DNA of 64,000 bases, taken from the NCBI RefSeq assembly GCF_048403405.1, contig NZ_CP183129.1; one strand, 5' to 3'. A model generated the notes under the pieces. The model made no database searches, was not told the DNA's origin, and was given only the letters and a program-made list of their open reading frames with translations. The DNA is from Escherichia coli (GTDB taxonomy: Bacteria; Pseudomonadota; Gammaproteobacteria; Enterobacterales; Enterobacteriaceae). Numbering within the stretch: the stretch's first letter is position 1; each line of letters starts with the position of its first letter. This document shows positions 11,319 to 25,307 of the stretch, in pieces. Position numbers and translations under genes: made by a program.

Positions 11319-11574
11319 CGCCATAGTCGCTAAATCTGATGATTAAGCTCACACAATTTCAACGATTTTTTTAATCTCAAAACCATACAGCATCAAAAAA
11401 TTTGTTGCTGTATGCCACTCTTTGACTCCCTTCACATTCGTCATCACACCACCTGCTGAATGCAAAAATTTCGTTGCTGTGCGGCAAACTTTTTTCCTGT
11501 TTTGTGCCGCTTTTCTCCTGAATACTCGTTCTCAGAACAACTGGATCGTTTAAACATCAGACAGGAGATTTACC

Positions 11575-12243
11575 ATGACGCAATCCATTTTTCAGGCTCA
11601 ACCCTTTGAATTACCTTTTGATCCGCGCACAACTGCACTGGTCATGATCGACATGCAGCGTGACTTTGTCGAAGCAGGGGGCTTCGGTGAGGCACTGGGC
11701 AATGATGTTTCACTGGTACGCACGGCTATCGCACCATGTACAGAGGTGCTGGCAGCCGCACGTCAAAAAGGAATTATGGTTATTCATACTCGTGAAGGCC
11801 ATCGTGCAGACTTAAGCGACTGCCCGCCAGCCAAACTGACGCGCGGCGGAAAAACCTTTATTGGTGAACCAGGACCGATGGGACGCATTCTGGTCAGAGG
11901 TGAAGCAGGTCATGACATCATTCCTGAACTGTACCCGGTGGCAGGCGAACCGGTGATTGATAAGCCTGGCAAAGGCGCGTTTTATCAAACCGACTTACAT
12001 CTGATTTTGCAAAACCACGGTATCAAGACGCTGATAGTTTGTGGTGTAACAACCGAAGTTTGCGTAACCACCACCGTGCGCGAAGCAAATGATCGTGGCT
12101 ATGAATGCATTATCCCGGAAGATTGTGTCGGCTCCTATTTCCCGGAATTCCAGAAATACGCCCTCGAGATGATCAAAGCACAAGGTGCCATTTTCGGTTG
12201 GGTTACTGATTCCAAAGCCATTATTGCAGGTCTGGAAGGCTAA
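11575..12243 (+). CDS. Isochorismatase-family cysteine hydrolase (RutB / N-carbamoylsarcosine amidase / biuret hydrolase-like amidase)
   Basis: 222-aa ORF with the isochorismatase-fold signature: Asp in VMIDMQRDF near the N-terminus and catalytic Cys in CGVTTEVCV. AGGAGA SD upstream. First gene of accessory operon A. Confidence 0.8.
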   Translation: MTQSIFQAQPFELPFDPRTTALVMIDMQRDFVEAGGFGEALGNDVSLVRTAIAPCTEVLAAARQKGIMVIHTREGHRADLSDCPPAKLTRGGKTFIGEPGPMGRILVRGEAGHDIIPELYPVAGEPVIDKPGKGAFYQTDLHLILQNHGIKTLIVCGVTTEVCVTTTVREANDRGYECIIPEDCVGSYFPEFQKYALEMIKAQGAIFGWVTDSKAIIAGLEG

Positions 12244-12248
12244 CGCCG

Positions 12249-13109
12249 ATGGCACAGATTACGCTTTGCGCATCGTCGTTGGGATATCTTTTCCCGCAGA
12301 ATGAAACGCAAGATTTACGTCTGCATAGCGCTTTTAAACATGCGGTAAATCTGTATTCAGAAGCGGGAACATTCATCACTCTGTTGTGTGCGCAAACGTA
12401 TCTGAATCTCCCTGATGCTGCCAGAGTCTGGCTACCTGAATGTTGGGACTGGCGAAGAGAGATTGCCCATTCCGATCCCGTTCAGTTAACCCCAGGCTTA
12501 CTGCAGACACCTCGCTTTTGTGTGGCTCTCGATAACGCAACGCTCTGGCAGCCGTCATTTGTGGGAGGAAGGCTGACACTTGAGGCGTTCCCTTTGGTTT
12601 TCCAGCACTACCCAACGATGGCATCGCAACGGCTTTTATTTTGTCTGGAGCATAACGTTCAAAGCACATTGCACCTGCCGGATAGTCTCACGCACCAGGG
12701 ATTAGCGATTATGGAACATCCAGATGCGCTGGAACGCCAGGTGCCACAACTGATCGGCTTTGGTAAAGGCTTAACGCCCGATGGAGATGACTATTTGTTG
12801 GGCTATCTGGCAGCACTCTGGTTATGGCAACTCCCTGCACCACTTGCCGATCATCAATACCGGTTGCAGCAGGCAATTGATCAACATGCGCACAACACCA
12901 CGGATATCAGTCGTCATTATCTGGAGCGTGCGCTTCAGGGACATTTTTCAGAACCGATTTGCCAGTTACTCGCACAACTGGTTGGGAGCGCATCGGCAAT
13001 GACAATCGCATCCTGTGCAGAACAGGTCATGCAATTTGGCGCAACGTCAGGAGTAGATTGCCTTGCAGGAATGCTGCATGGCTTTCGAACCCTGAACACC
13101 ATGAATTGA
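12249..13109 (+). CDS. DUF2877-family protein (YlbF/YahE/AllH-like subunit of an oxamate-carbamoyltransferase-type complex)
   Basis: 286-aa ORF starting 6 nt after the previous stop; Gly-rich motifs GKGLTPDGDDYLLGY and GATSGVD resemble the DUF2877 family as I recall it. Position matches the yahE-yahF-yahG-yahI order. Confidence 0.65.
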   Translation: MAQITLCASSLGYLFPQNETQDLRLHSAFKHAVNLYSEAGTFITLLCAQTYLNLPDAARVWLPECWDWRREIAHSDPVQLTPGLLQTPRFCVALDNATLWQPSFVGGRLTLEAFPLVFQHYPTMASQRLLFCLEHNVQSTLHLPDSLTHQGLAIMEHPDALERQVPQLIGFGKGLTPDGDDYLLGYLAALWLWQLPAPLADHQYRLQQAIDQHAHNTTDISRHYLERALQGHFSEPICQLLAQLVGSASAMTIASCAEQVMQFGATSGVDCLAGMLHGFRTLNTMN

Positions 13110-13203
13110 TTTCAACCTTTTCTCCTGTAGCTCATTTATGGCGCTACACGGGGATGCTTTGCCCGAATTTTACTATCGGGCGGAATGAAACAGGCGTAAC
13201 AGC

Positions 13204-14763
13204 ATGAAAGTTAAATATAAAGTTTTCAGTAATCTTTATCAGGACTCAGTTTCTCTGATGCAGATTTCCGCGCAAATCAGCAAGTTGCCCGGTATTCAAC
13301 AGGCCTCGGTCGTCATGGGAACACCCAATAATCTCGAACAATTGCGCGATGCGGGTCTGGGTAACGAAATCAACGCCAGTCCCAATGATTTAGTGATTGC
13401 AGTCATGGGTGAAGAAGATATTTGCAATGAAGCACTGGCACTGGCCCAGCAACGTCTGACCAGCAAACCCGATGATGAAACGGATAGTGGCATTAAAACA
13501 CCGGAAAATGTCAGCCTGGACATGGCACTGGAAGCCGAACCCGAAGCCAACCTGGCACTCATTTCTGTACCGGGAGACTACGCCGCCGCCGAAGCAATTA
13601 AAGCGTTAAACCTCGGAATGAACGTGATGATGTTCAGCGATAACGTCAGTATCGCGCAGGAAAAATCCATCAAAATACTTGCCCGAGAACGTCAGCGCAT
13701 CGTAATGGGACCTGACTGTGGAACCGCCATTGTTAACGGCATTCCGTTAGGCTTCGCTAATGTGGTGAAACGCGGAGCAATTGGTGTTATTGGCGCGTCA
13801 GGCACCGGGCTACAGGAAGTGACTTGCCGAATCGACCAGCTCGGAGCGGGTATTTCTCAGGCGCTGGGAACAGGCGGGCATGATCTCAGTGAAGAGATTG
13901 GTGGAATATCGATGCTCTTCGCTTTAGATGCGCTGGCGCAAGACGATGAAACTCGCGTAATTGTGCTGATTTCAAAACCGCCTTCACCGATCGTTGCCCG
14001 GACTATTCTGGAGCGTGCCGAGGCTTGTGGAAAACCCGTGGTGGTGAATTTCCTCGGTGCGAATCCGCATGATCTGGCACGTCCCAATATCACTGCCGCC
14101 ACCACACTTGCCAGCGCCGCCGACATCGCTGTGGCGTTACTGAATGCTCAGCCACTTCCGGCTGTCGAGACCGAGATTTCCTGCGCCGATCTCACAATGT
14201 TACAAAACGCCTGTCAGCGCCTGCCAGCCCATCGCCAGGCGATACGCGGTGTTTTCGCCGGAGGAACCTTCTGCTACGAAGCGCAACTTATCTGCCAGCA
14301 AAAGGGATTCCGCGCCGCCTCCAATACGCCAGTTGCGAGTAATCGTACTCTGGCAAATATCTGGCAAAGCGAAGATCACACGCTGATCGATATGGGCGAC
14401 GATGATTTCACCCGTGGCAAACCGCATCCAATGATCGACCCGACTCTGCGCAATCAACGTCTGCTCAACGAACTCAACGACTCACACACTGCCGTCGTGT
14501 TATTCGACCTGGTACTTGGTTATGGCGCTTCCGCTACACCTGCCAGCGAATTACTGGACCAACTTTCACACATCGACATGAATAACGCACCGTTGCTGAT
14601 TGCGCACGTTTGCGGAACGGAAGCTGATCCGCAAATACGCAGTCAGCAGATAAGCGCACTACAAAATGCGGGCATCATCATTGCCAGCAGCAATGCACAG
14701 GCGGCGCTATGGGCCAGCGTCGTTGCGCAGACTCAGTTGCAGAAAAAGGGGCTAAACGCATGA
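13204..14763 (+). CDS. FdrA-like protein (CoA-binding / succinyl-CoA-synthetase-like fold; AllF/YahF family)
   Basis: 519-aa ORF sharing long motifs with E. coli FdrA as I recall it (NLALISVPGDYAA, MMFSDNVS, MGPDCGTAIVNGIPLGFANVV, GVIGASGTGLQEV, GRPHPMIDPTLRNQ). Confidence 0.8.
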   Translation: MKVKYKVFSNLYQDSVSLMQISAQISKLPGIQQASVVMGTPNNLEQLRDAGLGNEINASPNDLVIAVMGEEDICNEALALAQQRLTSKPDDETDSGIKTPENVSLDMALEAEPEANLALISVPGDYAAAEAIKALNLGMNVMMFSDNVSIAQEKSIKILARERQRIVMGPDCGTAIVNGIPLGFANVVKRGAIGVIGASGTGLQEVTCRIDQLGAGISQALGTGGHDLSEEIGGISMLFALDALAQDDETRVIVLISKPPSPIVARTILERAEACGKPVVVNFLGANPHDLARPNITAATTLASAADIAVALLNAQPLPAVETEISCADLTMLQNACQRLPAHRQAIRGVFAGGTFCYEAQLICQQKGFRAASNTPVASNRTLANIWQSEDHTLIDMGDDDFTRGKPHPMIDPTLRNQRLLNELNDSHTAVVLFDLVLGYGASATPASELLDQLSHIDMNNAPLLIAHVCGTEADPQIRSQQISALQNAGIIIASSNAQAALWASVVAQTQLQKKGLNA

Positions 14764-16184
14764 ATACCTTATTTAATCAGCCTTTGAAGGTTGTGAACGC
14801 GGGACTACACAGTTTTGCTGACAATATTCAACATGCCGGGGGAAGCGCAATTGCACTCAACTGGCAGCCACCAGCACAAGGCGATATTGACGCTGGATTG
14901 GATCTGGCATCGTTGCTACGTCATCCACTGGTAGAAAATGCCAACCAAATCGCCATGACACGTTATCTCGAAGCACAGCCCGTGCTGGTAGATGTCATGC
15001 TCGCTAAAGAGGCCATTCCAGCAATGGCTGAACAAAAACGTATTTTGCACTCTGGCCCGCCGATTGCCTGGGAAGAGATGTGTGGTCCGGTAAAAGGGGC
15101 GATTATTGGTGCCATGCTGTACGAAGGTTGGGCCACCAGCCAGCAAGACGCTGAAAACCAGATAAACGCAGGCGAAATCGACCTTGCCCCTTGTCATCAT
15201 TATCACGCGGTTGGCCCAATGGCTGGCATCATCAGCCCGTCGATGCCGTTATGGGTGGTAGAAAACAAAACCAACGGCCACCGTACTTTTAGCAATTTCA
15301 ATGAAGGTCTGGGTAAGGTTCTCCGTTTTGGCGCCAATAACGATGAAGTTCTCAATCGTCTGGCCTGGATGCGCGATGAACTGGCGCCGGCAATGAAAGC
15401 AGCAATCGCACAACACGGCGAGCTGGAACTCAAGCCATTAATGGCGCAGGCGCTGCATATGGGGGATGAAGTTCATAACCGCAATGCTGCCGCTACCGGT
15501 TTGCTGATTAAGCGCCTGCTCCCGGCATTGCTGGCCTGCTCTCTTCCACAGGAACATATCCAGCGCGTCGTGGCATTTATCACCGGTAACGATCACTTCT
15601 TCCTCAATCTGTCGATGGCTGCCTGTAAAGCAATGATGGATGCCGCCGCCAATGTACCGTTCAGTTCAATGGTTACGGTGATGGCGCGTAACGGGGTGAA
15701 TTTTGGTATTCGGCTTTCCGGTACTGGCGATCGCTGGTTCCAGGCTCCTGCCAATGCCGTTGAAGGTCTGTTCTTCCCCGGATTTGGCGTTGACGACGCT
15801 GCTGCTGACCTGGGTGATAGCGCAATTACTGAAACCGCAGGTGTGGGTGGCTTCGCGATGGCGTCGTCTCCGGCGATCGTCAAATTTGTGGGAGGCACCC
15901 CTGCCGATGCCACCAATAACAGCCGTCGGATGCAAGCCATCACCCTCGGCGGTAACCCCGCATTTACACTTCCAGCCCTCAATTTTGCCCCCACCGCAGC
16001 AGGGATTGATGCGCGTAAAGTGACCGATCGCGGCATTTTACCGGTCATCAATACGGGTATCGCCCACAAACAAGCGGGGGTCGGGCAAATTGGTGCCGGG
16101 ATCACCACTGCGCCGATGGCCTGTTTTGTCGCCGCTGTACGTGCACTGGCGGAGATCGTCGCAAAGGAGAACCATCATGGTTAA
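14760..16184 (+). CDS. DUF1116-family protein (YlbE/YahG/AllG-like)
   Basis: ORF open from 14709; I place the start at the ATG at 14760, which overlaps the FdrA-like stop (ATGA), giving MNTLFNQPLKVVNAG. Same gene order as yahF-yahG and fdrA-ylbE. Confidence 0.75.
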   Translation: MNTLFNQPLKVVNAGLHSFADNIQHAGGSAIALNWQPPAQGDIDAGLDLASLLRHPLVENANQIAMTRYLEAQPVLVDVMLAKEAIPAMAEQKRILHSGPPIAWEEMCGPVKGAIIGAMLYEGWATSQQDAENQINAGEIDLAPCHHYHAVGPMAGIISPSMPLWVVENKTNGHRTFSNFNEGLGKVLRFGANNDEVLNRLAWMRDELAPAMKAAIAQHGELELKPLMAQALHMGDEVHNRNAAATGLLIKRLLPALLACSLPQEHIQRVVAFITGNDHFFLNLSMAACKAMMDAAANVPFSSMVTVMARNGVNFGIRLSGTGDRWFQAPANAVEGLFFPGFGVDDAAADLGDSAITETAGVGGFAMASSPAIVKFVGGTPADATNNSRRMQAITLGGNPAFTLPALNFAPTAAGIDARKVTDRGILPVINTGIAHKQAGVGQIGAGITTAPMACFVAAVRALAEIVAKENHHG

Positions 16185-17133
16185 GCCACTGGCTGTTGTC
16201 GCGGTTGGCGGCAATGCGCTCATTCAGGACGAGCAACGCAATAGTATTCCCGATCAATATGTTGCAGTGATGGAAAGCGTGCAGCATATCGTTGATATGG
16301 TTGAAGCCGGATGGGACCTGGTGCTAACCCACGGTAATGGCCCGCAGGTGGGCTTTATTCTGCGCCGCTCTGAACTCGCCAGTAACGAAGTTTCTCCGGT
16401 TCCACTTGATTACGCCGTGGGTGATACACAAGGTGCAATTGGCTACATGTTCCAGAAAGCGCTGCATTACGAATTGGCTCGCCGTGGCATAAACAAACCG
16501 GTAATTGCCCTGGTGACACAAACGCGAGTCAGCCCACATGACGATGCTTTCGCCAACCCCAGTAAACCGATTGGCGCGTTTCTCGATGAAGCAACGGCCC
16601 AACAACGCCAACAACAACTCGGCTGGACGCTGATGGAGGACGCCGGGCGTGGTTGGCGGCGTACAGTTCCCTCTCCTGCACCACTGGAAATTATTGAGCA
16701 CGACACCATCGCTCACCTGGTGCGCCAGGGATATCTGGTTATTGCCTGCGGCGGCGGCGGTATTCCGGTGGTGCGAGACGGGCAACAACTGAAAGGTGTA
16801 GAAGCCGTGATCGATAAAGATCTGGCCTCCGCGCTGCTCGCCAGTCAGTTAGGCGCAGATCTGCTGGTGATCCCCACCGGTGTAGAAAAAGTGGCGATTA
16901 ACTTTGGTACACCACAACAACAGTGGCTCGACGCTATCAGCGTTGCCGAAGCGCAAACGCTGTTGCGGGAAGGTCAGTTTGGTGTCGGCAGTATGCAACC
17001 CAAAGTGGAAGCCATTGTTGATTTCATCAATGCCAGCCAGCAACAAGGCAAACAGGCCAGCGGCCTGATTACTTCACCGCAAACCATAAAAGCAGCCCTG
17101 GCGCATCAGAGCGGTACATGGATAACCCTTTAA
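16177..17133 (+). CDS. Carbamate kinase (ArcC/YahI/AllK family)
   Basis: ORF open from 16090; start placed at MVKPLAVVAVGGNALI (the classic carbamate kinase N-terminus) with an AAGGAGA SD 7 nt upstream; 8-bp overlap with the preceding gene. Confidence 0.85.
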   Translation: MVKPLAVVAVGGNALIQDEQRNSIPDQYVAVMESVQHIVDMVEAGWDLVLTHGNGPQVGFILRRSELASNEVSPVPLDYAVGDTQGAIGYMFQKALHYELARRGINKPVIALVTQTRVSPHDDAFANPSKPIGAFLDEATAQQRQQQLGWTLMEDAGRGWRRTVPSPAPLEIIEHDTIAHLVRQGYLVIACGGGGIPVVRDGQQLKGVEAVIDKDLASALLASQLGADLLVIPTGVEKVAINFGTPQQQWLDAISVAEAQTLLREGQFGVGSMQPKVEAIVDFINASQQQGKQASGLITSPQTIKAALAHQSGTWITL

Positions 17134-17149
17134 ATCTCTGGAGAACACA

Positions 17150-17539
17150 ATGACTACAACGCTTTTAGCCGTTAACGGAACGCTGATGCGCGGCCTGGAA
17201 CTCAACCCAAATATGAAAAAAGCGGGCGGTATTTTTGTCCGTGAAGACCGAACTGACGCCCATTACCGGTTGTGGAGTATTAACGATCGCCATCCGGGAA
17301 TGATTCGCGTGAATGAAGGAGGAACACACGTCGACGTAGAAATTTGGCAATTACCGCTGGCCAGTTTTGCCGCTCTGTTAATGAGCGAACCCGCTGGGCT
17401 GGCAATTGGCAAAATCAAACTTGCCGATGGTAGCGAAGTGCTGGGCGTACTGGCAGAAAACTGGCTGACCGAAGGCCAACGGGAAATTACAGAACTGGGC
17501 GGCTGGCGCAAATACACCGGGCATTTTCATACTGTGTAA
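17150..17539 (+). CDS. Small protein resembling the C-terminal domain of allophanate hydrolase (GGCT-like fold), tentative
   Basis: 129-aa ORF. The segment YRLWSINDRHPGMIRVNEGGTHVDVEIWQLPLASFAALLMSEPAGLAIGKIKLADGSEVLGVLAENW...LGGWRKY resembles the allophanate hydrolase C-terminal domain pattern as I remember it. Assignment from memory only. Confidence 0.5.
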   Translation: MTTTLLAVNGTLMRGLELNPNMKKAGGIFVREDRTDAHYRLWSINDRHPGMIRVNEGGTHVDVEIWQLPLASFAALLMSEPAGLAIGKIKLADGSEVLGVLAENWLTEGQREITELGGWRKYTGHFHTV

Positions 17540-17564
17540 CGCGCATTTATAAAGGGAACATACT

Positions 17565-18788
17565 ATGCGTAAAAAAGAAGAGAATCTGAATACGGCATCA
17601 GGATTGCGTATTGCCATGATTTTGCTGGGTATTGCCGTCACACCTGTGCTGTTGTCATCCTCAAGCCTCGGCAATCAACTTTCCAGCGGCAGTTTAATTA
17701 GCGTCGTATTGTTAGGCGGCGTCATTCTGACCTTACTTTCAGCCATCACCATTAGCGTGGGAGAAAAAGCCCGCCTGCCAACGTATGGCATTGTGAAATA
17801 TTCGTTTGGCGAAAAAGGGGCCATCGCCATTAACATTTTGATGGCGATAAGTCTGTTCGGCTGGATTGCCGTTACCGCCAATATGTTTGGTCATTCGGTA
17901 CATGACTTACTGGCTCAACATGGACTGGAAGTTCCACTGGCACTGTTAGTGGCGGCTGGCTGTGTCATTTTTGTCGCCTCTACGGCATTTGGCTTTGCCG
18001 TTCTGGGAAAAATTGCCCAGGTTGCCGTGCCGGTTATCGCGCTGGTGCTGTGTTACATCCTCTATGTGGCAACCCATACCGAAGTGGCAGTACCAGCGGC
18101 GATTGTGGAGATGAATACAGGTGTCGCCGTTTCCACCGTTGTTGGCACCATTATTGTGCTGGTTGCCACACTGCCTGATTTCGGTAGTTTTGTGCATAAC
18201 CGCAAACATGCACTGATTGCCGCAGGCGTGACGTTTCTGGTTGCCTACCCTCTGCTCTACTGGGCGGGTGCAACGCCGAGCGCCATTAGTGGTCAGGGAT
18301 CTTTACTGGGTGCGATGGCGGTATTCGGTGCGGTTCTGCCTGCGGCGCTGTTGTTGATTTTCGCCTGCGTCACCGGTAACGCGGGCAATATGTTCCAGGG
18401 CACGCTGGTGGTTTCCACACTGCTTACCCGCTTTCCCAAATGGCAGATTACCGTGGCGCTGGGTATCCTTTCCGCCATCGTAGGCAGTATGGATATTATG
18501 GCGTGGTTTATTCCGTTTCTGCTGTTCCTGGGTATCGCCACGCCACCCGTTGCCGGAATTTATATCGCTGACTTTTTCCTTTATCGCCGTAATGGCTATC
18601 AAGAGTCAGTGTTAGCCCAGGAGTCACAGATTAAAGTGCTGACATTCGCAGCATGGATCATAGGCGCAGCGGTTGGCTTTATGACCGTAAAAGGCTTATT
18701 CACCCTGACGACGATCCCTTCGGTAGACTCGATTCTGGTGGCATGTATCGCGTATGCGATTCTCAGTCGGGCAAGTCAACACCGCTAA
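17565..18788 (+). CDS. NCS1-family nucleobase/hydantoin-type permease (CodB-like)
   Basis: 407-aa polytopic membrane protein (about 12 hydrophobic segments) with length and organisation like the cytosine permease CodB. Confidence 0.75.
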   Translation: MRKKEENLNTASGLRIAMILLGIAVTPVLLSSSSLGNQLSSGSLISVVLLGGVILTLLSAITISVGEKARLPTYGIVKYSFGEKGAIAINILMAISLFGWIAVTANMFGHSVHDLLAQHGLEVPLALLVAAGCVIFVASTAFGFAVLGKIAQVAVPVIALVLCYILYVATHTEVAVPAAIVEMNTGVAVSTVVGTIIVLVATLPDFGSFVHNRKHALIAAGVTFLVAYPLLYWAGATPSAISGQGSLLGAMAVFGAVLPAALLLIFACVTGNAGNMFQGTLVVSTLLTRFPKWQITVALGILSAIVGSMDIMAWFIPFLLFLGIATPPVAGIYIADFFLYRRNGYQESVLAQESQIKVLTFAAWIIGAAVGFMTVKGLFTLTTIPSVDSILVACIAYAILSRASQHR

Positions 18789-18865
18789 TTCCTGGGTATA
18801 CTCAGGCAATGATTACGGCTGAATCTGGAGAGATTCAGCCACTTTACCACTGACCAGGGAGCCTT

Positions 18866-19771
18866 ATGTTCATCTCAGACGAAACGCTTCGTGTTATTCA
18901 TCTGGTCGCCAGACACCAGAGCATTACCATCGCAGCCGAGCAGTTAAATAAAGTCCCTTCCGCCATCAGTTACACCATCAAGAAAGCGGAAGAGAGCCTG
19001 GGCGTTGAACTGTTCATTCGTAAGGGACGCTATATTGAATTATCGCCAGCGGGAAGTTACTTCATCGAACATAGCAAAACTATTCTTGGCGACCTGGAAG
19101 CATTAAAGCGCAACACAGTGCTGATTCACGATGGTATTGAGCGTGAACTGACAATTGCGGTAAACAATATTATTCCTGGTAATTTGCTGGTGGCATTTAT
19201 TCGAGATTTTGAACGGCAATTCACATCAACAACACTGACGGTAGATCTTGAGGTATACAACGGCTGCTGGGATGCGCTGTACAGTAAGCGTGCTGATCTG
19301 GTCTACGGTGCTCCTCATGCAGTACCAAGTAGTGAAGGCATCATTAGCGAACCGGTCGGACAAATGGAATGGGATTTTGTCGTCAGCCCACTCCACCCAC
19401 TGGCAGCGAAGCGGCATCCATTAGAAAACAGTGAATTGCGTCATTATCCAGCGGTTTGTATCCGCGATACCTCCGTTAACTTCCCCCCGATGCAAGCCTG
19501 GTTGTTGGAAGGACAAAAACCCATTTTTGTTCCTGACTTCGCTACGGCAATCGCCTTAATAGAACAAAACGTCGGTATTGGTTATATTCCACATCATCTG
19601 GCATTGCCGTTATTGAACAGCGGTAAATTGCTTAAAAAGCCAATGCGCGAACATAAACACGCCACCAAGTTATTTCTTGCCGCTCGTTCCGATGGTATGG
19701 GCAAAGCCTGTCAGTGGTGCATAGAATATTTAAGAAACCCGCAATTAATGACACGATTTGTATTTAATTGA
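18866..19771 (+). CDS. LysR-family transcriptional regulator
   Basis: 301-aa ORF with N-terminal HTH (ITIAAEQLNKVPSAISYTIKKAEESLGVELFIRKGR) and C-terminal LysR substrate-binding domain. Confidence 0.85.
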   Translation: MFISDETLRVIHLVARHQSITIAAEQLNKVPSAISYTIKKAEESLGVELFIRKGRYIELSPAGSYFIEHSKTILGDLEALKRNTVLIHDGIERELTIAVNNIIPGNLLVAFIRDFERQFTSTTLTVDLEVYNGCWDALYSKRADLVYGAPHAVPSSEGIISEPVGQMEWDFVVSPLHPLAAKRHPLENSELRHYPAVCIRDTSVNFPPMQAWLLEGQKPIFVPDFATAIALIEQNVGIGYIPHHLALPLLNSGKLLKKPMREHKHATKLFLAARSDGMGKACQWCIEYLRNPQLMTRFVFN

Positions 19772-19899
19772 CAATACAATGATAAAAATATAAGTCTTGC
19801 TTTAATTAGAGCGCCCGTTTAAATTATTTTTGTGCAGTTGACGTAACTCATGAAAATTAACCGGTCTGTTAATCATTACGTTCACTGCACACCTTCATT

Positions 19900-19940
19900 T
19901 TTTCACACCTATCCACGCCTGAAAACTATGTTATAATCAG
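19900..19940 (+). promoter_or_regulatory. Putative sigma70 promoter with extended -10 (TGTTATAAT) for the RpiR-family gene
   Basis: TGTTATAAT at about 19929-19937 in an AT-rich intergenic region, about 30 nt upstream of the ATG at 19971. No convincing -35. Confidence 0.3.
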
Positions 19941-19970: not shown

Positions 19971-20816
19971 ATGAATAACATAACCGTAAAAAGTCTGATT
20001 CAAAGCAATTACCCTACACTGCATCAGGCGGAAAAAAAGGTCGCCGACTATATTCTTAGCCACGCACATGAAGTCGTGAACTATAGTGTCACTGAACTAT
20101 CAGAAAAAAGCCATGCCAGTGAAGCGACTATCGTGCGCACCTGTAAGAAATTAGGTTATCAGGGTTATTACCATTTAAAAATTGCATTAGCAAAAGAAGT
20201 CATTAATCCTGACAATAGCTATCCTGATAATACCGATTTTACCGATATAACGTCGCTGGCCACATTTTTATTAAAAAAACAGGCCGAAGATTTAATACAA
20301 TCAACGCAATTTTTTAATGCCGAAGTGCTTGAGTCCATTCTCAAACTACTTGCTAATTGCGATACTATTTTCTTTTTTGCTGCCGGAAATTCAAACCCTC
20401 TGGCCGTTTATGGTGCTTATAAATTCAGCCAACTCGGATTAAAAACCGTTGTTCACGTCAGCCCGGAAATGCAAATTAATGCGGCATATTCTATGGGGAA
20501 ACGCGACCTGGCGATTGGTATTTCTAACTCTGGCAGCACCAACTTAATGGTCGATATCTTTAAAGTGGTGAAAGAGCGCGGTGCCAAATCCGTTTGTATC
20601 ACTAACTATATTAAATCTCCGTTATCAAAACTCTCCACCCATCAACTCAATACCGCGGTCAGCGATAAAATCTTCTTTGAAGCCTTCGACTCCACTCGCG
20701 TTCCGGCAATGGGCGTTATTGATATGCTGGTGCTGTTGTTTATGTATAAAAACAAGGCGCATTACGAGAAATACCGCACCCGTGAAGAGTTTCTCGGCTC
20801 CCGTTTCAAGGGGTAA
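19971..20816 (+). CDS. RpiR/MurR-family transcriptional regulator (HTH + SIS domain)
   Basis: 281-aa ORF with N-terminal HTH_6-type region (SVTELSEKSHASEATIVRTCKKLGYQGYYHLK) and C-terminal SIS domain. Confidence 0.85.
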   Translation: MNNITVKSLIQSNYPTLHQAEKKVADYILSHAHEVVNYSVTELSEKSHASEATIVRTCKKLGYQGYYHLKIALAKEVINPDNSYPDNTDFTDITSLATFLLKKQAEDLIQSTQFFNAEVLESILKLLANCDTIFFFAAGNSNPLAVYGAYKFSQLGLKTVVHVSPEMQINAAYSMGKRDLAIGISNSGSTNLMVDIFKVVKERGAKSVCITNYIKSPLSKLSTHQLNTAVSDKIFFEAFDSTRVPAMGVIDMLVLLFMYKNKAHYEKYRTREEFLGSRFKG

Positions 20817-20840
20817 AAGGTCATCCTTTCACCCCTTGTG
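20810..20840. terminator. Hairpin between the convergent RpiR-family and transketolase genes (possible bidirectional terminator)
   Basis: GGGGTAAAAGG-TCAT-CCTTTCACCCC inverted repeat overlapping the rpiR-like stop codon, followed by TTGTG; 30-bp gap between convergent stops. Confidence 0.4.
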
Positions 20841-20845
20841 CAGGT

Positions 20846-22843
20846 TTAGCTATTCAGTAGCTCACGCGCCTGCGCCAGGACATTTTCCGGCGTAAAACCA
20901 AAGTGTTTGAACAACACATTCGCCGGAGCAGACTCACCAAAGCTCGTCATCCCAATGACTTTACCATCCAGACCGACGTAGCGTTCCCAGAATCCGGCGA
21001 TGCTGGCTTCTACCGCCAGACGTTTGCGTACAGCTTTTGGCAATACCGATTCTTTGTACGCCGCATCCTGATTATCGAAACGCTCGGTACACGGCATGGA
21101 AACTACGCGAACTTTACGCCCTTCTTCCGTTAACGCTTTTGCGGCGCTGACCACTAACTCAATCTCTGAACCCGCAGAAATGAGGATCATCTCAGGCTGA
21201 CCGTCACAATCACTCAGTACATAACCACCACGCGCAATCTCTGCCAACTGTGCAGCGGTGCGCGGCTGTTGCGCCAGCGGTTGGCGCGTTAATACCAACG
21301 ACGTTGGGCCATCTTTGCGCTCAATCGCCTGTTGCCAGGCCACCGCCACTTCCACCTGATCGCAACCGCGCCAGGTTTCCATATTCGGCGTCAGACGCAG
21401 CGACGCCAGTTGCTCAACGGGCTGATGTGTCGGGCCGTCTTCGCCCAGGCCGATGGTATCGTGGGTATAAACAAACACCGAGCGGATCTTCATCAGCGCC
21501 GCCATGCGCAGTGCATTACGCGCATATTCCATAAACATCAGGAAAGTACCGCCGTAAGGGATAAACCCACCATGCAGCGCAAGACCGTTCATGATGGCCG
21601 ACATACCAAATTCACGCACGCCATAGGAGATGTAATTCCCCGCCGGATTTTCCCCGGTGAAATCAACCGATTTCTGATGGCGAGTCAGGTTAGAGGGCGA
21701 CAAGTCCGCCGAGCCGCCCATCAGTTCCGGCAGCATATCAGCGAAGTGATTGAGGCATTTCTGGCTGACCTGACGGGTTGCCAGCGCCGCCGGATGGGAT
21801 TGCAGATCGTGCACATATTTCTGCATATTCTCGGCCCAGCCAGCAGGCAAATCACCCTTCATGCGACGAGTAAACTCCGCCGCCAGTTCCGGCCACTGCT
21901 TCGCGTAGTCAGCAAACAGTGCATCCCATTCCTGTTGAACCTGCGCGCCTTTCTCGGTCGCATCCCATTCGGCATAAATTTCACCAGGAATTTCGAAAGG
22001 GGCATACGGCCATTGCAGACGTTCACGCACCAGCGCCACTTCATCTGCACCCAGCGCCGAGCCGTGGCAATCGTGGCTGTTGGCTTTATTTGGTGAACCA
22101 AAACCGATAATCGTTTTGCAGCACAGCAGACTGGGCTTATCCGTGACGCTTTTCGCTTCACGCACCGCAGCATCTACCGCTTCTGGATCGTGACCATCAA
22201 CGCCTTCAATGACATGCCAGCCGTAGGCACGAAAACGGGCAGCCGTATCTTCAGCGAACCAGCCTTCTACGTGACCATCGATCGAAATACCGTTATCGTC
22301 CCAGATAGCAATCAGATTGCCGAGCTTCAGCGTTCCTGCAAGACCACAGGCCTCGTGGGAGATCCCTTCCATCAGGCAGCCATCACCCAAAAATAGCCAT
22401 GTGTGATGATCAACAATATTAAAGCCCGGTTTGTTAAATTCTGCCGCCAGCGCCTTCTCCGCAATCGCCATCCCCACCGCATTAGCTACGCCCTGCCCCA
22501 ACGGGCCGGTGGTGGTTTCAACACCCGGCGTATAACCATATTCTGGATGACCCGGCGTGCGGGAGTGGAGCTGACGAAAGTCGCGAATATCATCCATCGA
22601 CAGGTCGTAGCCTGTAAGATGCAGCAAAGCGTAAATCAACATGGAGCCGTGACCGTTCGACTGAACATAGCGGTCGCGGTTAAACCACTGCGGATTTTTT
22701 GGGTTATGACGCAGGTGACGACGCCAGACCACTTCGGCAATATCCGCCATCCCCATCGGCGCGCCCGGATGACCGGAGTTCGCTTTCTGGATCGCATCAA
22801 CACTTAACATTCGGATGGCATTAGCCAGTAATTGTGAATTCAT
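20846..22843 (-). CDS. tkt: Transketolase paralog (third tkt copy; possibly the ExPEC-associated 'tkt1')
   Basis: 665-aa ORF collinear with E. coli TktA/TktB over its whole length ([81 protein letters not shown]) but clearly divergent from both, and located in an accessory island. Confidence 0.9.
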
Positions 22844-22893
22844 ACTTCAGCTCTCTCTGTCTGGCGGGCTGAAACCAGCCCGCTAATCTCGAA

Positions 22894-24402
22894 TTAGTTA
22901 GCACAGGCCACTGTCATTTCTGTCGGGCGCGGTCTGCTCATTACGGTTTTAATTTCGTCGCGCAGGATTTGCGATTTGCCGCCAAATATCACCTGTACAC
23001 CGCCATCACCCAGTTTCACTAACCCCGCAGCCCCCAACTCCTTCAGCCGTTTTTCATTCACTTTCTTATCGTCTACCAGCGCCAGCCTCAGGCGTGTTGC
23101 GCAGGCATCCACATCTTCGATATTGTCGAAACCACCTACTGCTTCGATGATTTGGTATGGACGTTCTTCGCGCGTTAATGTGGTTGCAACGGCAATCTCT
23201 TCATCCTCACGTCCCGGTGTTTTCAGATTCAACTTGCGGATCAGTACCCGAAATACGGTGTAGTAAATCGCTGCATAGCCCGCGCCTGCCAGGAACACCA
23301 GATACCACGGCGTGCGGTTTGGCATAACGCCATTCAGTACGAAATCAATAAGACCGCCAGCAAAAGGATGACCAATGTGCACATTCAGGATGTTCATCAG
23401 CACAAATGAAGTGGCATATAAGAAGATGTGAATGATGTAGAGAACCGGAGCTGCAAACAAAAATGCATATTCCAGCGGCTCCGTAATCCCGGTAACAAAT
23501 GTGGTCAGCGCACCGGAGAGTAAAAGGCCTTTAATCAGCGCCTTACGTTCCGGTTTTGCTTCCTGATACATCGCCAACGCGGCGGCAGGTAACGCAAACA
23601 TCATGATCGGGAAACGACCTGTCATAAACAGCCCCGCCGTCAACGGAACACCGTCGCGCAATTGGGCAAAGAACACCGGAATATCGCCCGTCACCAGTTG
23701 CCCGGATTTGGTCATGTAGTCGCCAAAGTTGTAATAAAACGGCACGTTCCAGATATGATGCAGGCCAAAAGGAATCAGCGAACGTTCGCCAACGGCGTAA
23801 ATAAAGGCCGCGAAGTTCGCGTTATGCCCACTGGTCACCAGCGTTGAAAGCGACGCCAGACCTTTTTGTACCGGTATCCACAGCCACGGCAATAAATAGC
23901 CGACAATAATTGCCGCCACCGCCGTAATAATCGGTACAAAGCGTTTTCCACCGAAGAAACCAAGAAACTGAGGCAATTCAATATTGTGGAAGCGGGTATA
24001 GAGCAGATAAACAAAGATGGCGACAATCAAACCGCCAAACACTCCCGTTTGTAACGTCGGTACCCCGAGGATCATCGCATAGTCACCGTTACTGGCTGCA
24101 ACGGACTCCGCGGTAATGCCAAGTTGCGTTCCCATCGTGGCATTCATGATCATGTAACTGATAATCGCTGAAAGTGATGAAGAACCATCACCTGTCAGGC
24201 CAATCACAATACCGACACAAAACAGCAAAGGAAGGTTGGCGAAAATCAGGCCGCCGCAATTCGCCAGCAGCTCAATGTTAAATGAAATCCCGATGGCTAA
24301 AATCAAACCCGCCGCCGGAAGAATGGCGATTGGTAACATCAGAGCAGAAGAAAATTTCTGCAACTTCTTGAAGTTAAACAAGGATGTTATTTTTTTGCTC
24401 AT
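22894..24402 (-). CDS. PTS glucose-family EIICB component (EIIC domain followed by EIIB domain)
   Basis: 502-aa ORF: polytopic EIIC region, then a C-terminal EIIB domain with the phosphocysteine motif DACATRLRL. No EIIA domain. Confidence 0.85.
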   Translation of the reverse strand: MSKKITSLFNFKKLQKFSSALMLPIAILPAAGLILAIGISFNIELLANCGGLIFANLPLLFCVGIVIGLTGDGSSSLSAIISYMIMNATMGTQLGITAESVAASNGDYAMILGVPTLQTGVFGGLIVAIFVYLLYTRFHNIELPQFLGFFGGKRFVPIITAVAAIIVGYLLPWLWIPVQKGLASLSTLVTSGHNANFAAFIYAVGERSLIPFGLHHIWNVPFYYNFGDYMTKSGQLVTGDIPVFFAQLRDGVPLTAGLFMTGRFPIMMFALPAAALAMYQEAKPERKALIKGLLLSGALTTFVTGITEPLEYAFLFAAPVLYIIHIFLYATSFVLMNILNVHIGHPFAGGLIDFVLNGVMPNRTPWYLVFLAGAGYAAIYYTVFRVLIRKLNLKTPGREDEEIAVATTLTREERPYQIIEAVGGFDNIEDVDACATRLRLALVDDKKVNEKRLKELGAAGLVKLGDGGVQVIFGGKSQILRDEIKTVMSRPRPTEMTVACAN

Positions 24403-24443
24403 TTTTATTCTCCTGTAGGGTATCGAGCAAATAACGGCGACGA

Positions 24444-25001
24444 CTATTCCAGATTGGCGTGGCGCTTAAACAGTTCACTTTCCGGCGCACCACTTTCAGC
24501 AGCCATCTTCATCACTAATGCATCGGCAATCACCAGCAAAGCTTGCTCATACAACGACGCCATCGGCTGTGCCGAGCGGAAAACAGAATCTTTTTGATTT
24601 TTGGAAGGGGCATTGATTTGCACGATGACGTCGACAAACTCGGTGATAGTGGCGTGTCGATTCGTGGTTAACACCGCCACAGCGCCGCCAAGCTGACGTG
24701 CTTTTTTCGCCAGTGCCACCAGTTGTGCTGTCTCACCGGAAGCGGAAGAAACGATAAACAGATCGCCAGGCCCAAAGTTCGGCGTAATGGTTTCCGTCAG
24801 AAAGTAAACCTCTTTTCCCATATGCATCAGGCGCATGGTGAAGGCTTTCATGGAAAAGCCGGCGCGTCCCAGGCCATAGCAGAAAACGCGCTGGCTTTGC
24901 TGAATAGCGTCGATCAATTTGGTGCAGTCATCCTCACGGATAGAGTCCTTAACGAAGGTTAATTCATTGATGATCTCAGTGATGTACAGCTTTGCGTCCA
25001 T
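24444..25001 (-). CDS. SIS-domain sugar-phosphate isomerase resembling 6-phospho-3-hexuloisomerase (PHI/HxlB-like)
   Basis: ORF open to 25013; start placed at the second Met (MDAKLYITEII), which has a GAGGTG SD about 6 nt upstream. About 185 aa with FTMRLMHMG, SASGET and C-terminal HANLE, as in PHI/HxlB as I recall it. Confidence 0.7.
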   Translation of the reverse strand: MDAKLYITEIINELTFVKDSIREDDCTKLIDAIQQSQRVFCYGLGRAGFSMKAFTMRLMHMGKEVYFLTETITPNFGPGDLFIVSSASGETAQLVALAKKARQLGGAVAVLTTNRHATITEFVDVIVQINAPSKNQKDSVFRSAQPMASLYEQALLVIADALVMKMAAESGAPESELFKRHANLE

Positions 25002-25307
25002 TTCACACCTCATGAAATAATTTTCTCAAACACAAAATCTCATGAAATTTTATTTCATTCCAATGCATCAGTATGAAATGTGAAGCTAGTCACAAGAAAG
25101 ATCATAGGTTGATATGTTTTTCATTAAAAAACATATAGATATCAAGTAATTTTTAATATGTGATGGAGAGGCAGATAGAAAAAATGGCGGAAATGACGAA
25201 ATTTATTTCATGAGAAGGGAATAAAGAAGATTTTCTTAAACAGGGTATGAACTGATATCTGGAATGGTTTACGCAGTATGCTGGGAAGACGTCGCTGTAA
25301 TGAGAAA

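What the first reader, a model, noticed from the sequence alone, without database searches (positions are those of the whole stretch)
17150..17539. Stand-alone 129-aa protein resembling the C-terminal domain of allophanate hydrolase
Allophanate hydrolase normally carries this GGCT-like domain fused to its amidase domain. Here a look-alike is encoded as a separate small ORF between carbamate kinase and the permease. A free-standing domain of this kind within a carbamate kinase operon would be unusual and suggests handling of an N-carboxy or carbamate intermediate. The assignment rests on remembered motif similarity (YRLW...PGMIRV..G..V.VE.W.LP...F.......P..LGIG...L.DG..V.G..CE.....G..DIT..GGWR.Y), so it is tentative.
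Basis: inference. Interest (0 to 1): 0.6.

Follow-up and report, generated by a model that had tools for sequence, protein, structure and literature searches.

The report
Free-standing allophanate-hydrolase C-domain protein (c4763)
The ORF is real and encodes the E. coli protein c4763, a stand-alone copy of the allophanate hydrolase C-terminal domain whose crystal structure is already published. Its function is untested, and its gene neighbours point to breakdown of triuret-like uric-acid oxidation products rather than urea.

Summary
Window 17150-17539 (+) encodes a 129-aa protein covered end to end by Pfam AH_C (E 8e-42). It is 127/129 identical to PDB 5C5Z, E. coli c4763 (2015), so the object and its resemblance to the allophanate hydrolase (AH) C-domain are already known. 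The function is not.

New here:
- It belongs to a distinct "type B" AH_C subfamily (motif AVNGTLMRG). The His conserved in AH C-domains is replaced by Leu.
- It is gene 6 of an 8-gene operon kept in at least 55 species. That operon is also carried on IncF plasmids.
- The first operon gene has all 14 signature residues of triuret hydrolase TrtA. It is followed by distant paralogues of oxamic transcarbamylase AllH/F/G, carbamate kinase, AH_C, an NCS1 permease and a LysR regulator.
- The constant partner of AH_C is the TrtA-type hydrolase, not the kinase. Fusions of isochorismatase-like hydrolases with AH_C recur in bacteria and algae.

Best inference, untested: AH_C decarboxylates the N-carboxylated product of the hydrolase (carboxybiuret) within an ATP-yielding ureide pathway. 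A scaffold role and a carbamate-handling role remain open.

The parts
11575..12243 (+). Gene 1: isochorismatase-like cysteine hydrolase of the TrtA (triuret hydrolase) type
   Evidence: Its best PDB matches are the TrtA structures 6XIX/6XJ4 at 270 bits, against 234-237 bits for BiuH. It is 59% identical to TrtA and has all 14 catalytic and discriminating residues, D F F N E K K A T E C Y Q I (residue list from PMC7948467). It scores 280 bits on the BiuH model, below the cut-off of 370.
12249..13109 (+). Gene 2: DUF2877 / AllH-like subunit
   Evidence: RefSeq names it 'oxamate carbamoyltransferase subunit AllH family protein'. It is 26% identical to K-12 YlbF/AllH.
13204..14763 (+). Gene 3: FdrA / AllF-like subunit
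   Evidence: It scores 497 bits on the NCBIfam FdrA model, above the cut-off of 433. It is 41% identical to K-12 FdrA.
14760..16184 (+). Gene 4: DUF1116 / YlbE / AllG-like subunit; its start overlaps the FdrA stop by 4 nt
   Evidence: RefSeq names it 'YlbE family protein'. It is 49% identical to K-12 YlbE.
16177..17133 (+). Gene 5: carbamate kinase; overlaps gene 4 by 8 nt
   Evidence: It scores 375 bits on NF009007 (cut-off 266) and 366 bits on TIGR00746 (cut-off 358). It is 39% identical to K-12 YbcF/AllK.
17150..17539 (+). Gene 6, the finding: free-standing AH_C domain protein, type B (c4763)
   Evidence: Pfam AH_C at E 8e-42. PDB 5C5Z is 127/129 identical. Foldseek finds 5C5Z, then the K. 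lactis AH C-domain, then GGCT and GGACT.
17565..18788 (+). Gene 7: NCS1-family permease, cytosine-permease-like but not CodB
   Evidence: It scores 146 bits on the CodB model, below the cut-off of 326. It is syntenic in 57 of 80 loci.
18866..19771 (+). Gene 8: LysR-type regulator of the PunR/AllS clade
   Evidence: It scores 286 bits on PunR and 214 bits on AllS, both below their cut-offs. It is syntenic in 52 of 80 loci.

Best explanation
The ORF encodes c4763, a homodimeric GGCT-fold protein of the 'type B' branch of the allophanate hydrolase C-domain family. It is the sixth gene of a horizontally mobile eight-gene operon: TrtA-type triuret hydrolase, AllH/AllF/AllG-like carbamoyltransferase, carbamate kinase, AH_C, NCS1 permease, LysR.

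Proposed mechanism:
1. The permease imports a triuret-like ureide, an oxidation product of uric acid.
2. The TrtA-type hydrolase removes one ammonia and leaves an N-carboxylated product (carboxybiuret).
3. AH_C decarboxylates that N-carboxy compound. This is the same kind of chemistry proposed for the AH C-domain on N-carboxycarbamate, and the same job that the unrelated TrtB does in Herbaspirillum.
4. The AllFGH paralogue phosphorolyses the resulting ureide (biuret, carboxybiuret or allophanate) to carbamoyl phosphate.
5. Carbamate kinase converts carbamoyl phosphate to ATP, NH3 and CO2.

Shown here: the identity and fold of the protein, the operon, the TrtA signature of gene 1, and the co-occurrence and fusions. 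Inferred: the substrate, the decarboxylase activity, and the substrate of the carbamoyltransferase.
For: - Identity and fold.
- Operon structure: overlapping or closely spaced same-strand genes.
- Synteny: of 66 loci with enough flank, 62 have the hydrolase, 55 have carbamate kinase and 55 have hydrolase + FdrA + YlbE + kinase together.
- TrtA signature: all 57 AH_C-linked hydrolases share the full 14-residue TrtA signature. The second copies in Verrucomicrobia loci have the exact BiuH consensus. The discriminating residues come from PMC7948467.
- The hydrolase is the constant partner. Six loci have TrtA-type + BiuH + permease + AH_C with no carbamoyltransferase or kinase. In Pseudovibrio (L054) the cluster is split, and AH_C stays with the hydrolase and permease.
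- Fusions: PF00857 + PF21986 proteins occur in at least 11 clusters, in both domain orders, in bacteria and in eukaryotic algae. One such fusion gene sits alone among housekeeping genes.
- Literature: the N and C domains of AH are stated to catalyse sequential reactions (PMC5770610). Carboxybiuret is the TrtA product, has a spontaneous half-life of about 20 min, and has a dedicated decarboxylase, TrtB, in other bacteria (PMC7948467). AllFGH and AllK convert a ureide to carbamoyl phosphate and then ATP (PMC11326118).
- Constraint: 63-87% identity across bacterial classes, with many invariant polar residues, argues for an active site.
Against: - No activity has been measured for this protein, and the only study of it is structural.
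- The His conserved in 91% of AH-type C-domains (K. lactis His492) is Leu here, so the chemistry need not match that of AH.
- Whether the AH C-domain is catalytic at all is disputed (from memory: Lin & St Maurice 2013 and Balotra 2015 favour a dimerisation or assembly role).
- If the carbamoyltransferase acts directly on carboxybiuret and then on allophanate, no decarboxylase is needed. If biuret is the substrate, E. coli is left with urea, which it cannot use.
- AH_C lies directly after carbamate kinase in 62 of 80 loci, and a kinase-AH_C fusion exists, which could point to the kinase as partner.
- The 80 loci are the closest of 440 relatives, so synteny is over-represented.
Confidence: 0.4

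Rival explanations
1. AH_C is a non-catalytic adaptor. As a dimerisation or scaffold subunit, it would tether the TrtA-type hydrolase to the carbamoyltransferase and kinase, so that unstable N-carboxy intermediates are passed on rather than lost.
For: - The domain is always paired with, or fused to, a hydrolase of some fold: amidase signature, isochorismatase-like or GGT.
- c4763 is a homodimer, and the AH C-domain contributes to dimerisation (PMC5770610 figure legend; Lin & St Maurice 2013 from memory).
- The AH-type His is missing.
Against: - About 55 of 129 positions are invariant across classes, including many polar residues away from any one obvious interface.
- A polar core (T35, Y39, R40, E64, E103, R120, Y122) is shared with AH-type domains.
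- The protein persists with quite different partner sets.
Confidence: 0.22
2. AH_C is a partner of carbamate kinase. It would speed up or channel the breakdown of the carbamate released by the kinase, pulling the reaction toward ATP formation.
For: - AH_C lies less than 150 nt downstream of carbamate kinase in 62 of 80 loci.
- A continuous kinase-AH_C fusion exists: P0123, 458 aa, matching the ORF L072:2276-3652.
Against: - Adjacent operon genes fuse easily.
- AH_C occurs in six loci with the hydrolase but no kinase.
- In the split Pseudovibrio cluster it stays with the hydrolase.
- L065 has FdrA-YlbE-AH_C with no kinase between them.
- K-12 AllFGHK works without any AH_C.
- Carbamate decomposes quickly on its own (general chemistry).
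Confidence: 0.15
3. AH_C serves urea utilisation, as the 2015 structure paper proposed. In that view c4763 supplies the second half of allophanate hydrolase in a urease-independent urea pathway.
For: - It is homologous to the AH C-domain.
- This reading is repeated in later literature (PMC7558591).
Against: - No urea carboxylase and no amidase-signature domain appears in the operon or in any of the 80 loci.
- The conserved AH-type residues (His, PxPL, GFxCE) are replaced.
- Every non-AH fusion partner points to triuret/biuret-type hydrolases.
Confidence: 0.06
4. AH_C is a genuine GGCT-type cyclotransferase or lyase acting on a gamma-glutamyl or similar amide, unrelated to N-carboxy chemistry.
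For: - The type B motif AVNGTLMRG resembles FVYGTLKRG of human GGACT.
- An invariant Glu80 lies within 2 residues of the GGACT catalytic Glu82 in the profile alignment.
- Foldseek finds GGCT and GGACT.
- A sub-branch sits next to, or is fused with, GGT-like proteins.
Against: - The hhalign match is weak (pairwise E 0.028, probability 1.7%), and the Glu register is ambiguous.
- The Pfam GGACT hit is marginal at E 0.0025.
- The dominant gene context contains no gamma-glutamyl enzymes.
Confidence: 0.07

Closest known systems
E. coli CFT073 c4763 (PDB 5C5Z; Kim et al. 2015, Acta Cryst F 71:1042)
   Same: It is essentially the same protein: 127 of 129 residues identical, the same length, and the top Foldseek hit.
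   Different: Only two substitutions (K23Q, G118S). The published work is structural and proposes a role in urea utilisation, which the gene context found here does not support.
C-terminal domain of allophanate hydrolase (Pfam PF21986; K. lactis 4ISS/5I8I, G. bethesdensis 4GYR)
   Same: Same fold and clear homology: phmmer E 1e-12 to 7e-11, Foldseek TM 0.66-0.69, 26% identity. A polar core is shared: T35, Y39, R40, E64, E103, R120, Y122.
   Different: It is free-standing with no amidase domain. It forms a distinct subfamily: AVNGTLMRG replaces VVGAHLxG, so the conserved His becomes Leu; EPxGL replaces (I/V)PxPL; GVLxE replaces GFxCE. Its partners are isochorismatase-like hydrolases, not amidase-signature enzymes.
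Gamma-glutamyl(amine) cyclotransferases / AIG2-like proteins (GGCT 2RBH, GGACT 3JUB, PH0828 1V30)
   Same: Same overall fold: Foldseek probability 1.0, TM 0.51-0.59. The N-terminal xGTLxRG loop is similar.
   Different: Sequence identity is only 14-22%. The profile match is weak and the catalytic Glu equivalence is unresolved. The gene context is different.
TrtB / AtzH / HpxZ small decarboxylating enzymes of ureide pathways
   Same: Similar size (~126-130 aa). They have the same proposed position in the pathway, acting on the N-carboxylated product of a ureide amidohydrolase.
   Different: They belong to an unrelated family, and Pfam finds only AH_C/GGACT in this protein. Any equivalence would be functional analogy and is untested.
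E. coli K-12 AllFGH oxamic transcarbamylase plus AllK carbamate kinase (PMC11326118, PMC9843812)
   Same: The operon has the same four-protein module and the same logic: ureide to carbamoyl phosphate to ATP.
   Different: The window proteins are only 41% (AllF), 49% (AllG), 26% (AllH) and 39% (AllK) identical to the K-12 ones. The gene order is H-F-G rather than F-G-H. The module is joined to a TrtA-type hydrolase, AH_C and an NCS1 permease, none of which is in the K-12 all cluster.
Herbaspirillum triuret pathway TrtA-TrtB-BiuH-AtzF (PMC7948467)
   Same: The first enzyme has the same TrtA signature. An AH_C domain is also present there, as part of AtzF.
   Different: The E. coli operon has no BiuH, TrtB or AtzF. 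A phosphorolytic module (AllFGH-like plus kinase) and a free AH_C take their place.

Membership tests
Pfam AH_C (PF21986), allophanate hydrolase C-terminal domain | Full-length match to the domain profile | tested here: met
   E 8.2e-42, query residues 5-123, model positions 2-122 of 123.
Pfam AH_C (PF21986), allophanate hydrolase C-terminal domain | GGCT-like fold as in the K. lactis AH C-domain | tested here: met
   The solved structure 5C5Z is 98% identical. The AF2 model matches 4ISS and 5I8I with TM 0.66-0.69.
Allophanate hydrolase (EC 3.5.1.54; TIGR02713 / NF006043) | N-terminal amidase-signature domain with a Ser-cisSer-Lys triad | tested here: not met
   The protein has only 129 aa. 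The models match only at positions 440-563 and 472-595, scoring 103-106 bits against cut-offs of 511 and 487.
Allophanate hydrolase (EC 3.5.1.54; TIGR02713 / NF006043) | Conserved His of the C-domain (K. lactis His492, motif VVGAHL) | tested here: not met
   The His is present in 91% of AH-type domains. It aligns with the invariant Leu12 of the c4763 type. The catalytic importance of His492 is recalled from Fan et al. 2013, which is not held in the library.
Glutamyl-tRNA amidotransferase (the name on the PDB entry and on many database records) | GatA-type amidase domain, or homology to GatB or GatC | tested here: not met
   Pfam and NCBIfam give no such match. The name was inherited from the amidase half of AH.
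GGCT / GGACT (AIG2-like) cyclotransferases | Shared fold | tested here: met
   Foldseek probability 1.0 to 1V30, 2RBH, 3CRY, 3JUB and 2G0Q, with TM 0.51-0.59.
GGCT / GGACT (AIG2-like) cyclotransferases | YGSL/YGTL substrate loop and catalytic Glu (GGACT Glu82) | tested here: inconclusive
   NGTL aligns with YGTL. The invariant Glu80 falls 2 columns from Glu82 in a weak hhalign match (E 0.028). No residue-level structural superposition was available.
TrtB / AtzH / HpxZ decarboxylase family | Homology to that family | tested here: not met
   Pfam reports only AH_C, GGACT and a chance MtrD hit. TrtB is described as a relative of AtzH and HpxZ.
Triuret hydrolase TrtA (for gene 1 of the operon) | Catalytic triad D24/K129/C162 plus TrtA-specific residues F35, N41, A134, E160, Y187, I205 | tested here: met
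   All 14 positions are identical to Herbaspirillum TrtA in the window protein and in 57 of 62 AH_C-linked homologues.
Triuret hydrolase TrtA (for gene 1 of the operon) | Hydrolysis of triuret to carboxybiuret | not testable with these tools
   This needs an enzyme assay.
Oxamic transcarbamylase AllFGH (for genes 2-4) | Three subunits: FdrA, DUF1116 and DUF2877 | tested here: met
   All three are present and adjacent. They are only 41%, 49% and 26% identical to the characterised K-12 proteins, so they are paralogues whose substrate is unknown.

The most novel reading that the evidence does not exclude
The type B AH_C protein would be the missing small enzyme of an undescribed, energy-conserving route for triuret/biuret-type ureides. 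In this route a TrtA-type hydrolase and AH_C prepare the substrate. An AllFGH paralogue then cleaves it with phosphate, and carbamate kinase makes ATP. Carried on the chromosome of about 29% of complete E. coli genomes and on IncF plasmids of poultry and human isolates, it would let extraintestinal E. coli draw nitrogen and ATP from uric-acid oxidation products in urine or bird excreta. It would also settle the disputed question of whether the AH C-domain family is catalytic.
Probability: 0.25. Interest if true: 0.7.

Novelty: already known. Interest (0 to 1): 0.38.

Why it matters
The protein and its likeness to the AH C-domain were published in 2015, so the finding as stated adds nothing new.

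What remains open is its function, and the usual reading (urea utilisation) does not fit the gene context. The context found here gives a concrete and cheap-to-test alternative. A mobile operon found in many extraintestinal E. coli may degrade triuret-like products of uric-acid oxidation, which are reported in human urine, with ATP gain.

It also offers a natural free-standing form of the AH C-domain. That form could be used to test whether this domain family really catalyses decarboxylation of N-carboxy compounds.

Tried and rejected
- Three key papers are not held in the library: Kim 2015 on c4763, Fan 2013 on K. lactis AH, and Lin & St Maurice 2013. The role of His492 and the dimerisation argument therefore rest on memory.
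- Literature searches for N-carboxycarbamate, AtzF C-domain, PF21986 and 5C5Z found nothing on function.
- Locus tags c4757-c4762 appear only in a 2010 synteny table, which labels the neighbourhood by sugar pathways.
- The UPEC transcriptome paper mentions fdrA and ylbE only as the K-12 all genes (b0518, b4572), not this operon.
- The look-up of encoding contigs had no record for the fusion proteins P0132 and P0137. Context was obtained instead from P0292 and P0279.
- hhalign against human GGACT was too weak to fix the position of the catalytic Glu.
- The promoter and terminator scan gave no more sites than shuffled sequence.
- The GGT-like neighbour in Gemmatimonadota matched generic GGTs and cephalosporin acylase, with nothing specific to oxamate amidohydrolase.
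- I considered that AH_C might be TrtB itself. I rejected this because TrtB belongs to the AtzH/HpxZ family.
- The AF2 model is of only moderate quality (pLDDT 70.7). I used it only for fold-level matches.

Full report
**Observation.** Window 17150-17539 (+) holds an ATG-to-TAA ORF of 129 aa. A GGAG lies about 9 nt upstream. The ORF starts 16 nt after the stop of the carbamate kinase gene and ends 25 nt before a permease gene. Several results show it is a real gene:
- Pfam AH_C (PF21986) covers residues 5-123 at E 8.2e-42.
- The NCBIfam allophanate hydrolase models match only with their last ~125 positions, far below their cut-offs.
- PDB 5C5Z is identical at 127 of 129 residues. Its title is 'Crystal structure analysis of c4763, a uropathogenic E. 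coli-specific protein', released 2015.
- An AlphaFold model (pLDDT 70.7) finds 5C5Z first. It then finds the C-domain of K. lactis allophanate hydrolase and urea amidolyase (TM 0.66-0.69), and then PH0828, GGCT and GGACT.

The protein and this resemblance are, however, already published (Kim et al. 2015, cited in PMC7558591). RefSeq names it 'allophanate hydrolase-related protein'.

**Where it sits.** The window is E. coli. The 8.5-kb stretch 11400-19900 is present at 80% coverage or more in 1553 of 5426 complete E. coli genomes. It lies between ysgA and an RpiR-tkt-ptsG-like island. Eight same-strand genes with overlapping or short spacers form the unit:
- a cysteine hydrolase (11575-12243)
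- DUF2877/AllH-like (12249-13109)
- FdrA/AllF-like (13204-14763)
- DUF1116/AllG-like (14760-16184)
- carbamate kinase (16177-17133)
- AH_C (17150-17539)
- an NCS1 permease (17565-18788)
- a LysR regulator of the PunR/AllS clade (18866-19771)

The same eight genes also occur at about 93% identity on 82 conjugative plasmids. Of these, 78 are from E. coli, many from poultry, and 4 from Klebsiella. The one examined is IncF.

**The family.** 4774 homologues were found, and the best 120 are ~130-aa stand-alone proteins from Enterobacterales, Burkholderiales, Vibrionales, Dyella, Silvimonas and others. They are 63-87% identical to the query, with about 55 invariant positions.

I searched representatives at 50% identity and aligned 96 domains. 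They split cleanly into two types:
- **Type A** is the domain found in full-length allophanate hydrolases. Its motifs are VVGAHLxG, (I/V)PxPLxIG, GFxCE and DIT..GGWRxY.
- **Type B**, the c4763 type, has AVNGTLMRG, EPxGLxIGK, GV(L/I)xE and EIT..GGWRxY.

The His that is 91% conserved in type A is residue 492 in K. lactis numbering. It is Leu12 in type B. Both types share a polar core: T35, Y39, R40, E64, E103, R120 and Y122. The type B N-terminal loop looks like the YGTLKRG loop of human GGACT. The profile match is weak, though, and the position of the catalytic Glu cannot be fixed.

**Gene context across species.** A scan of one genome per species found 440 species with a relative, and the 80 closest loci were fetched. 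These 80 are biased toward close relatives of the query. Counts among the 66 loci with enough flanking DNA:

| Feature in the locus | Loci |
|---|---|
| Cysteine hydrolase | 62 |
| FdrA-like | 56 |
| YlbE-like | 56 |
| Carbamate kinase | 55 |
| All four together | 55 |

Further points on context:
- Six loci, mostly Verrucomicrobia, have the hydrolase but no carbamoyltransferase or kinase. They carry the hydrolase, a true BiuH (417 bits, above the cut-off of 370), an AzgA-like permease, a cupin and AH_C.
- In Pseudovibrio the cluster is split into two units. AH_C stays with the hydrolase and permease.
- A few cyanobacterial loci pair AH_C with a NitT/TauT ABC transporter. Gemmatimonadota and Trueperaceae loci pair it with a GGT-like protein.

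**The hydrolase is TrtA-type.** The best solved relatives of gene 1 are the triuret hydrolase structures 6XIX/6XJ4, at 270 bits. Biuret hydrolases score 234-237 bits. The TrtA paper lists the catalytic and binding residues (D24, F29, E72, K129, K132, T158, C162, Q202). It also lists six positions that differ between TrtA and BiuH (F35, N41, A134, E160, Y187, I205) (PMC7948467). The window protein, and 57 of 62 AH_C-linked homologues, have exactly the TrtA residue at all 14 positions. The five second copies in the Verrucomicrobia-type loci have exactly the BiuH consensus at the discriminating positions, apart from one that keeps Ala134. TrtA converts triuret to carboxybiuret. Carboxybiuret decarboxylates spontaneously with a half-life of about 20 min, or enzymatically through TrtB. 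TrtB belongs to the AtzH/HpxZ family, not to AH_C. Triuret is a product of uric-acid oxidation and has been reported in human urine.

**The phosphorolytic module.** K-12 AllFGH is oxamic transcarbamylase (oxalurate + phosphate to carbamoyl phosphate + oxamate), and AllK is the catabolic carbamate kinase (PMC11326118 and PMC9843812). The window proteins are distant paralogues: 41% (AllF), 49% (AllG), 26% (AllH) and 39% (AllK) identical. A different ureide substrate is therefore likely. A 2025 study noted biuH/trtA next to allFGHK, sometimes with codB, in comammox and archaeal ammonia oxidisers. It treated them as two neighbouring pathways and did not mention AH_C (PMC12625717).

**Fusions.** Type B AH_C is fused to several partners:
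- a TrtA-like hydrolase (P0132, from the alga Chromera velia)
- BiuH (P0137, P0197)
- carbamate kinase (P0123, matching the 458-aa ORF L072:2276-3652)
- a cupin (P0128)
- a GGT-like protein (P0252)
- a flavodoxin-like domain (P0140)

Proteins with PF00857 + PF21986 occur in at least 11 clusters from bacteria and eukaryotic algae. One such gene sits alone among housekeeping genes. Another sits beside a Cupin_7 protein and an extra isochorismatase gene.

**Interpretation.** AH joins an amidase that makes an N-carboxy product to a type A C-domain, and the two domains are stated to catalyse sequential reactions (PMC5770610). Type B AH_C is joined in the same way to isochorismatase-like ureide hydrolases, either by operon or by fusion. 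The most economical reading is that it processes the N-carboxylated product of that hydrolase. In practice this means decarboxylation of carboxybiuret, and possibly allophanate, ahead of phosphorolysis by the AllFGH paralogue and ATP formation by carbamate kinase.

Only the identities, the synteny, the signatures and the fusions are shown here. The substrate and all activities are inferred. Several alternatives remain, and are listed with the results that would refute each:
- a scaffold role
- a role with carbamate kinase
- the published urea idea
- a true cyclotransferase activity

The urea idea fits worst. No urea carboxylase or amidase-signature gene occurs in any of the 80 loci, and the type A signature residues are replaced.

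**Verdict.** The object is already known, and it is common rather than unusual. The added value of this second look has three parts:
- the type A / type B split, with loss of the AH His
- the identification of the operon's first enzyme as TrtA-type
- a specific, testable pathway proposal

Noticed in passing
window 11400-19900; L087 (NZ_CP019055.1 plasmid p1540-4) 4399-12577: The whole eight-gene operon is also carried, at about 93% identity, on 82 conjugative plasmids; the one examined is IncF. Of these, 78 are from E. coli, many from chickens, and 4 from Klebsiella. In the complete-genome set, 129 of 1631 matching places are on plasmids. Another 'carbamate kinase family protein' gene lies at the edge of the plasmid locus.
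   Followed up: partly
window 14760-14930 (N-terminus of the YlbE-like protein): Residues 6-42 of the YlbE-like protein match the C-terminal end of FdrA (K-12 FdrA 513-544; NCBIfam FdrA model positions 508-544). A short segment that belongs to FdrA in K-12 is therefore encoded at the start of the next gene here.
   Followed up: no
L059 9556-10008; L063 9616-10008; L085 7548-7931; protein P0128: A small ChrR-like cupin (Cupin_7) sits directly upstream of type B AH_C in loci that have the hydrolase and BiuH but lack the carbamoyltransferase and kinase. In P0128 it is fused to AH_C. Its role is unknown; it could act on allophanate or biuret.
   Followed up: partly
L077 7004-9368; L078 7554-9779; protein P0252: A divergent sub-branch of type B AH_C (FVNGTLMRG ... 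EPPxLYRG) lies next to, or is fused with, a gamma-glutamyltransferase-like protein in Gemmatimonadota and Trueperaceae. This pairing recalls GGT plus GGCT of the gamma-glutamyl cycle, so this sub-branch may have a different function.
   Followed up: partly
L011 and L012; L067: L012 is labelled Chryseobacterium sp. 18061 but gives exactly the same hit positions and identities as Citrobacter sp. 18056 (L011). L067 is labelled a Klebsiella pneumoniae MAG but has the Verrucomicrobia-type gene arrangement. Both look like contamination or mis-binning in the public records.
   Followed up: no
window 17150-17539 (database names): The PDB entry and many GenBank records call this protein 'glutamyl-tRNA amidotransferase', and JGI calls it 'GGCT/AIG2-like YtfP'. 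The first name is an error carried over from the amidase half of allophanate hydrolase.
   Followed up: yes
proteins P0271-P0281: Green-algal proteins of 460-480 aa (Scenedesmus, Nannochloris, Micractinium, Botryococcus and others) are the closest relatives of the Chromera hydrolase-AH_C fusion. Only the isochorismatase domain is annotated in them, leaving about 230 residues unexplained.
   Followed up: no
window 19971-25013: Directly downstream lies a separate accessory island: an RpiR/MurR regulator, a second transketolase, a PTS glucose-type IIBC gene and a SIS-domain protein. A 2010 synteny survey listed it among UPEC-associated gene sets (c4756-c4759).
   Followed up: no
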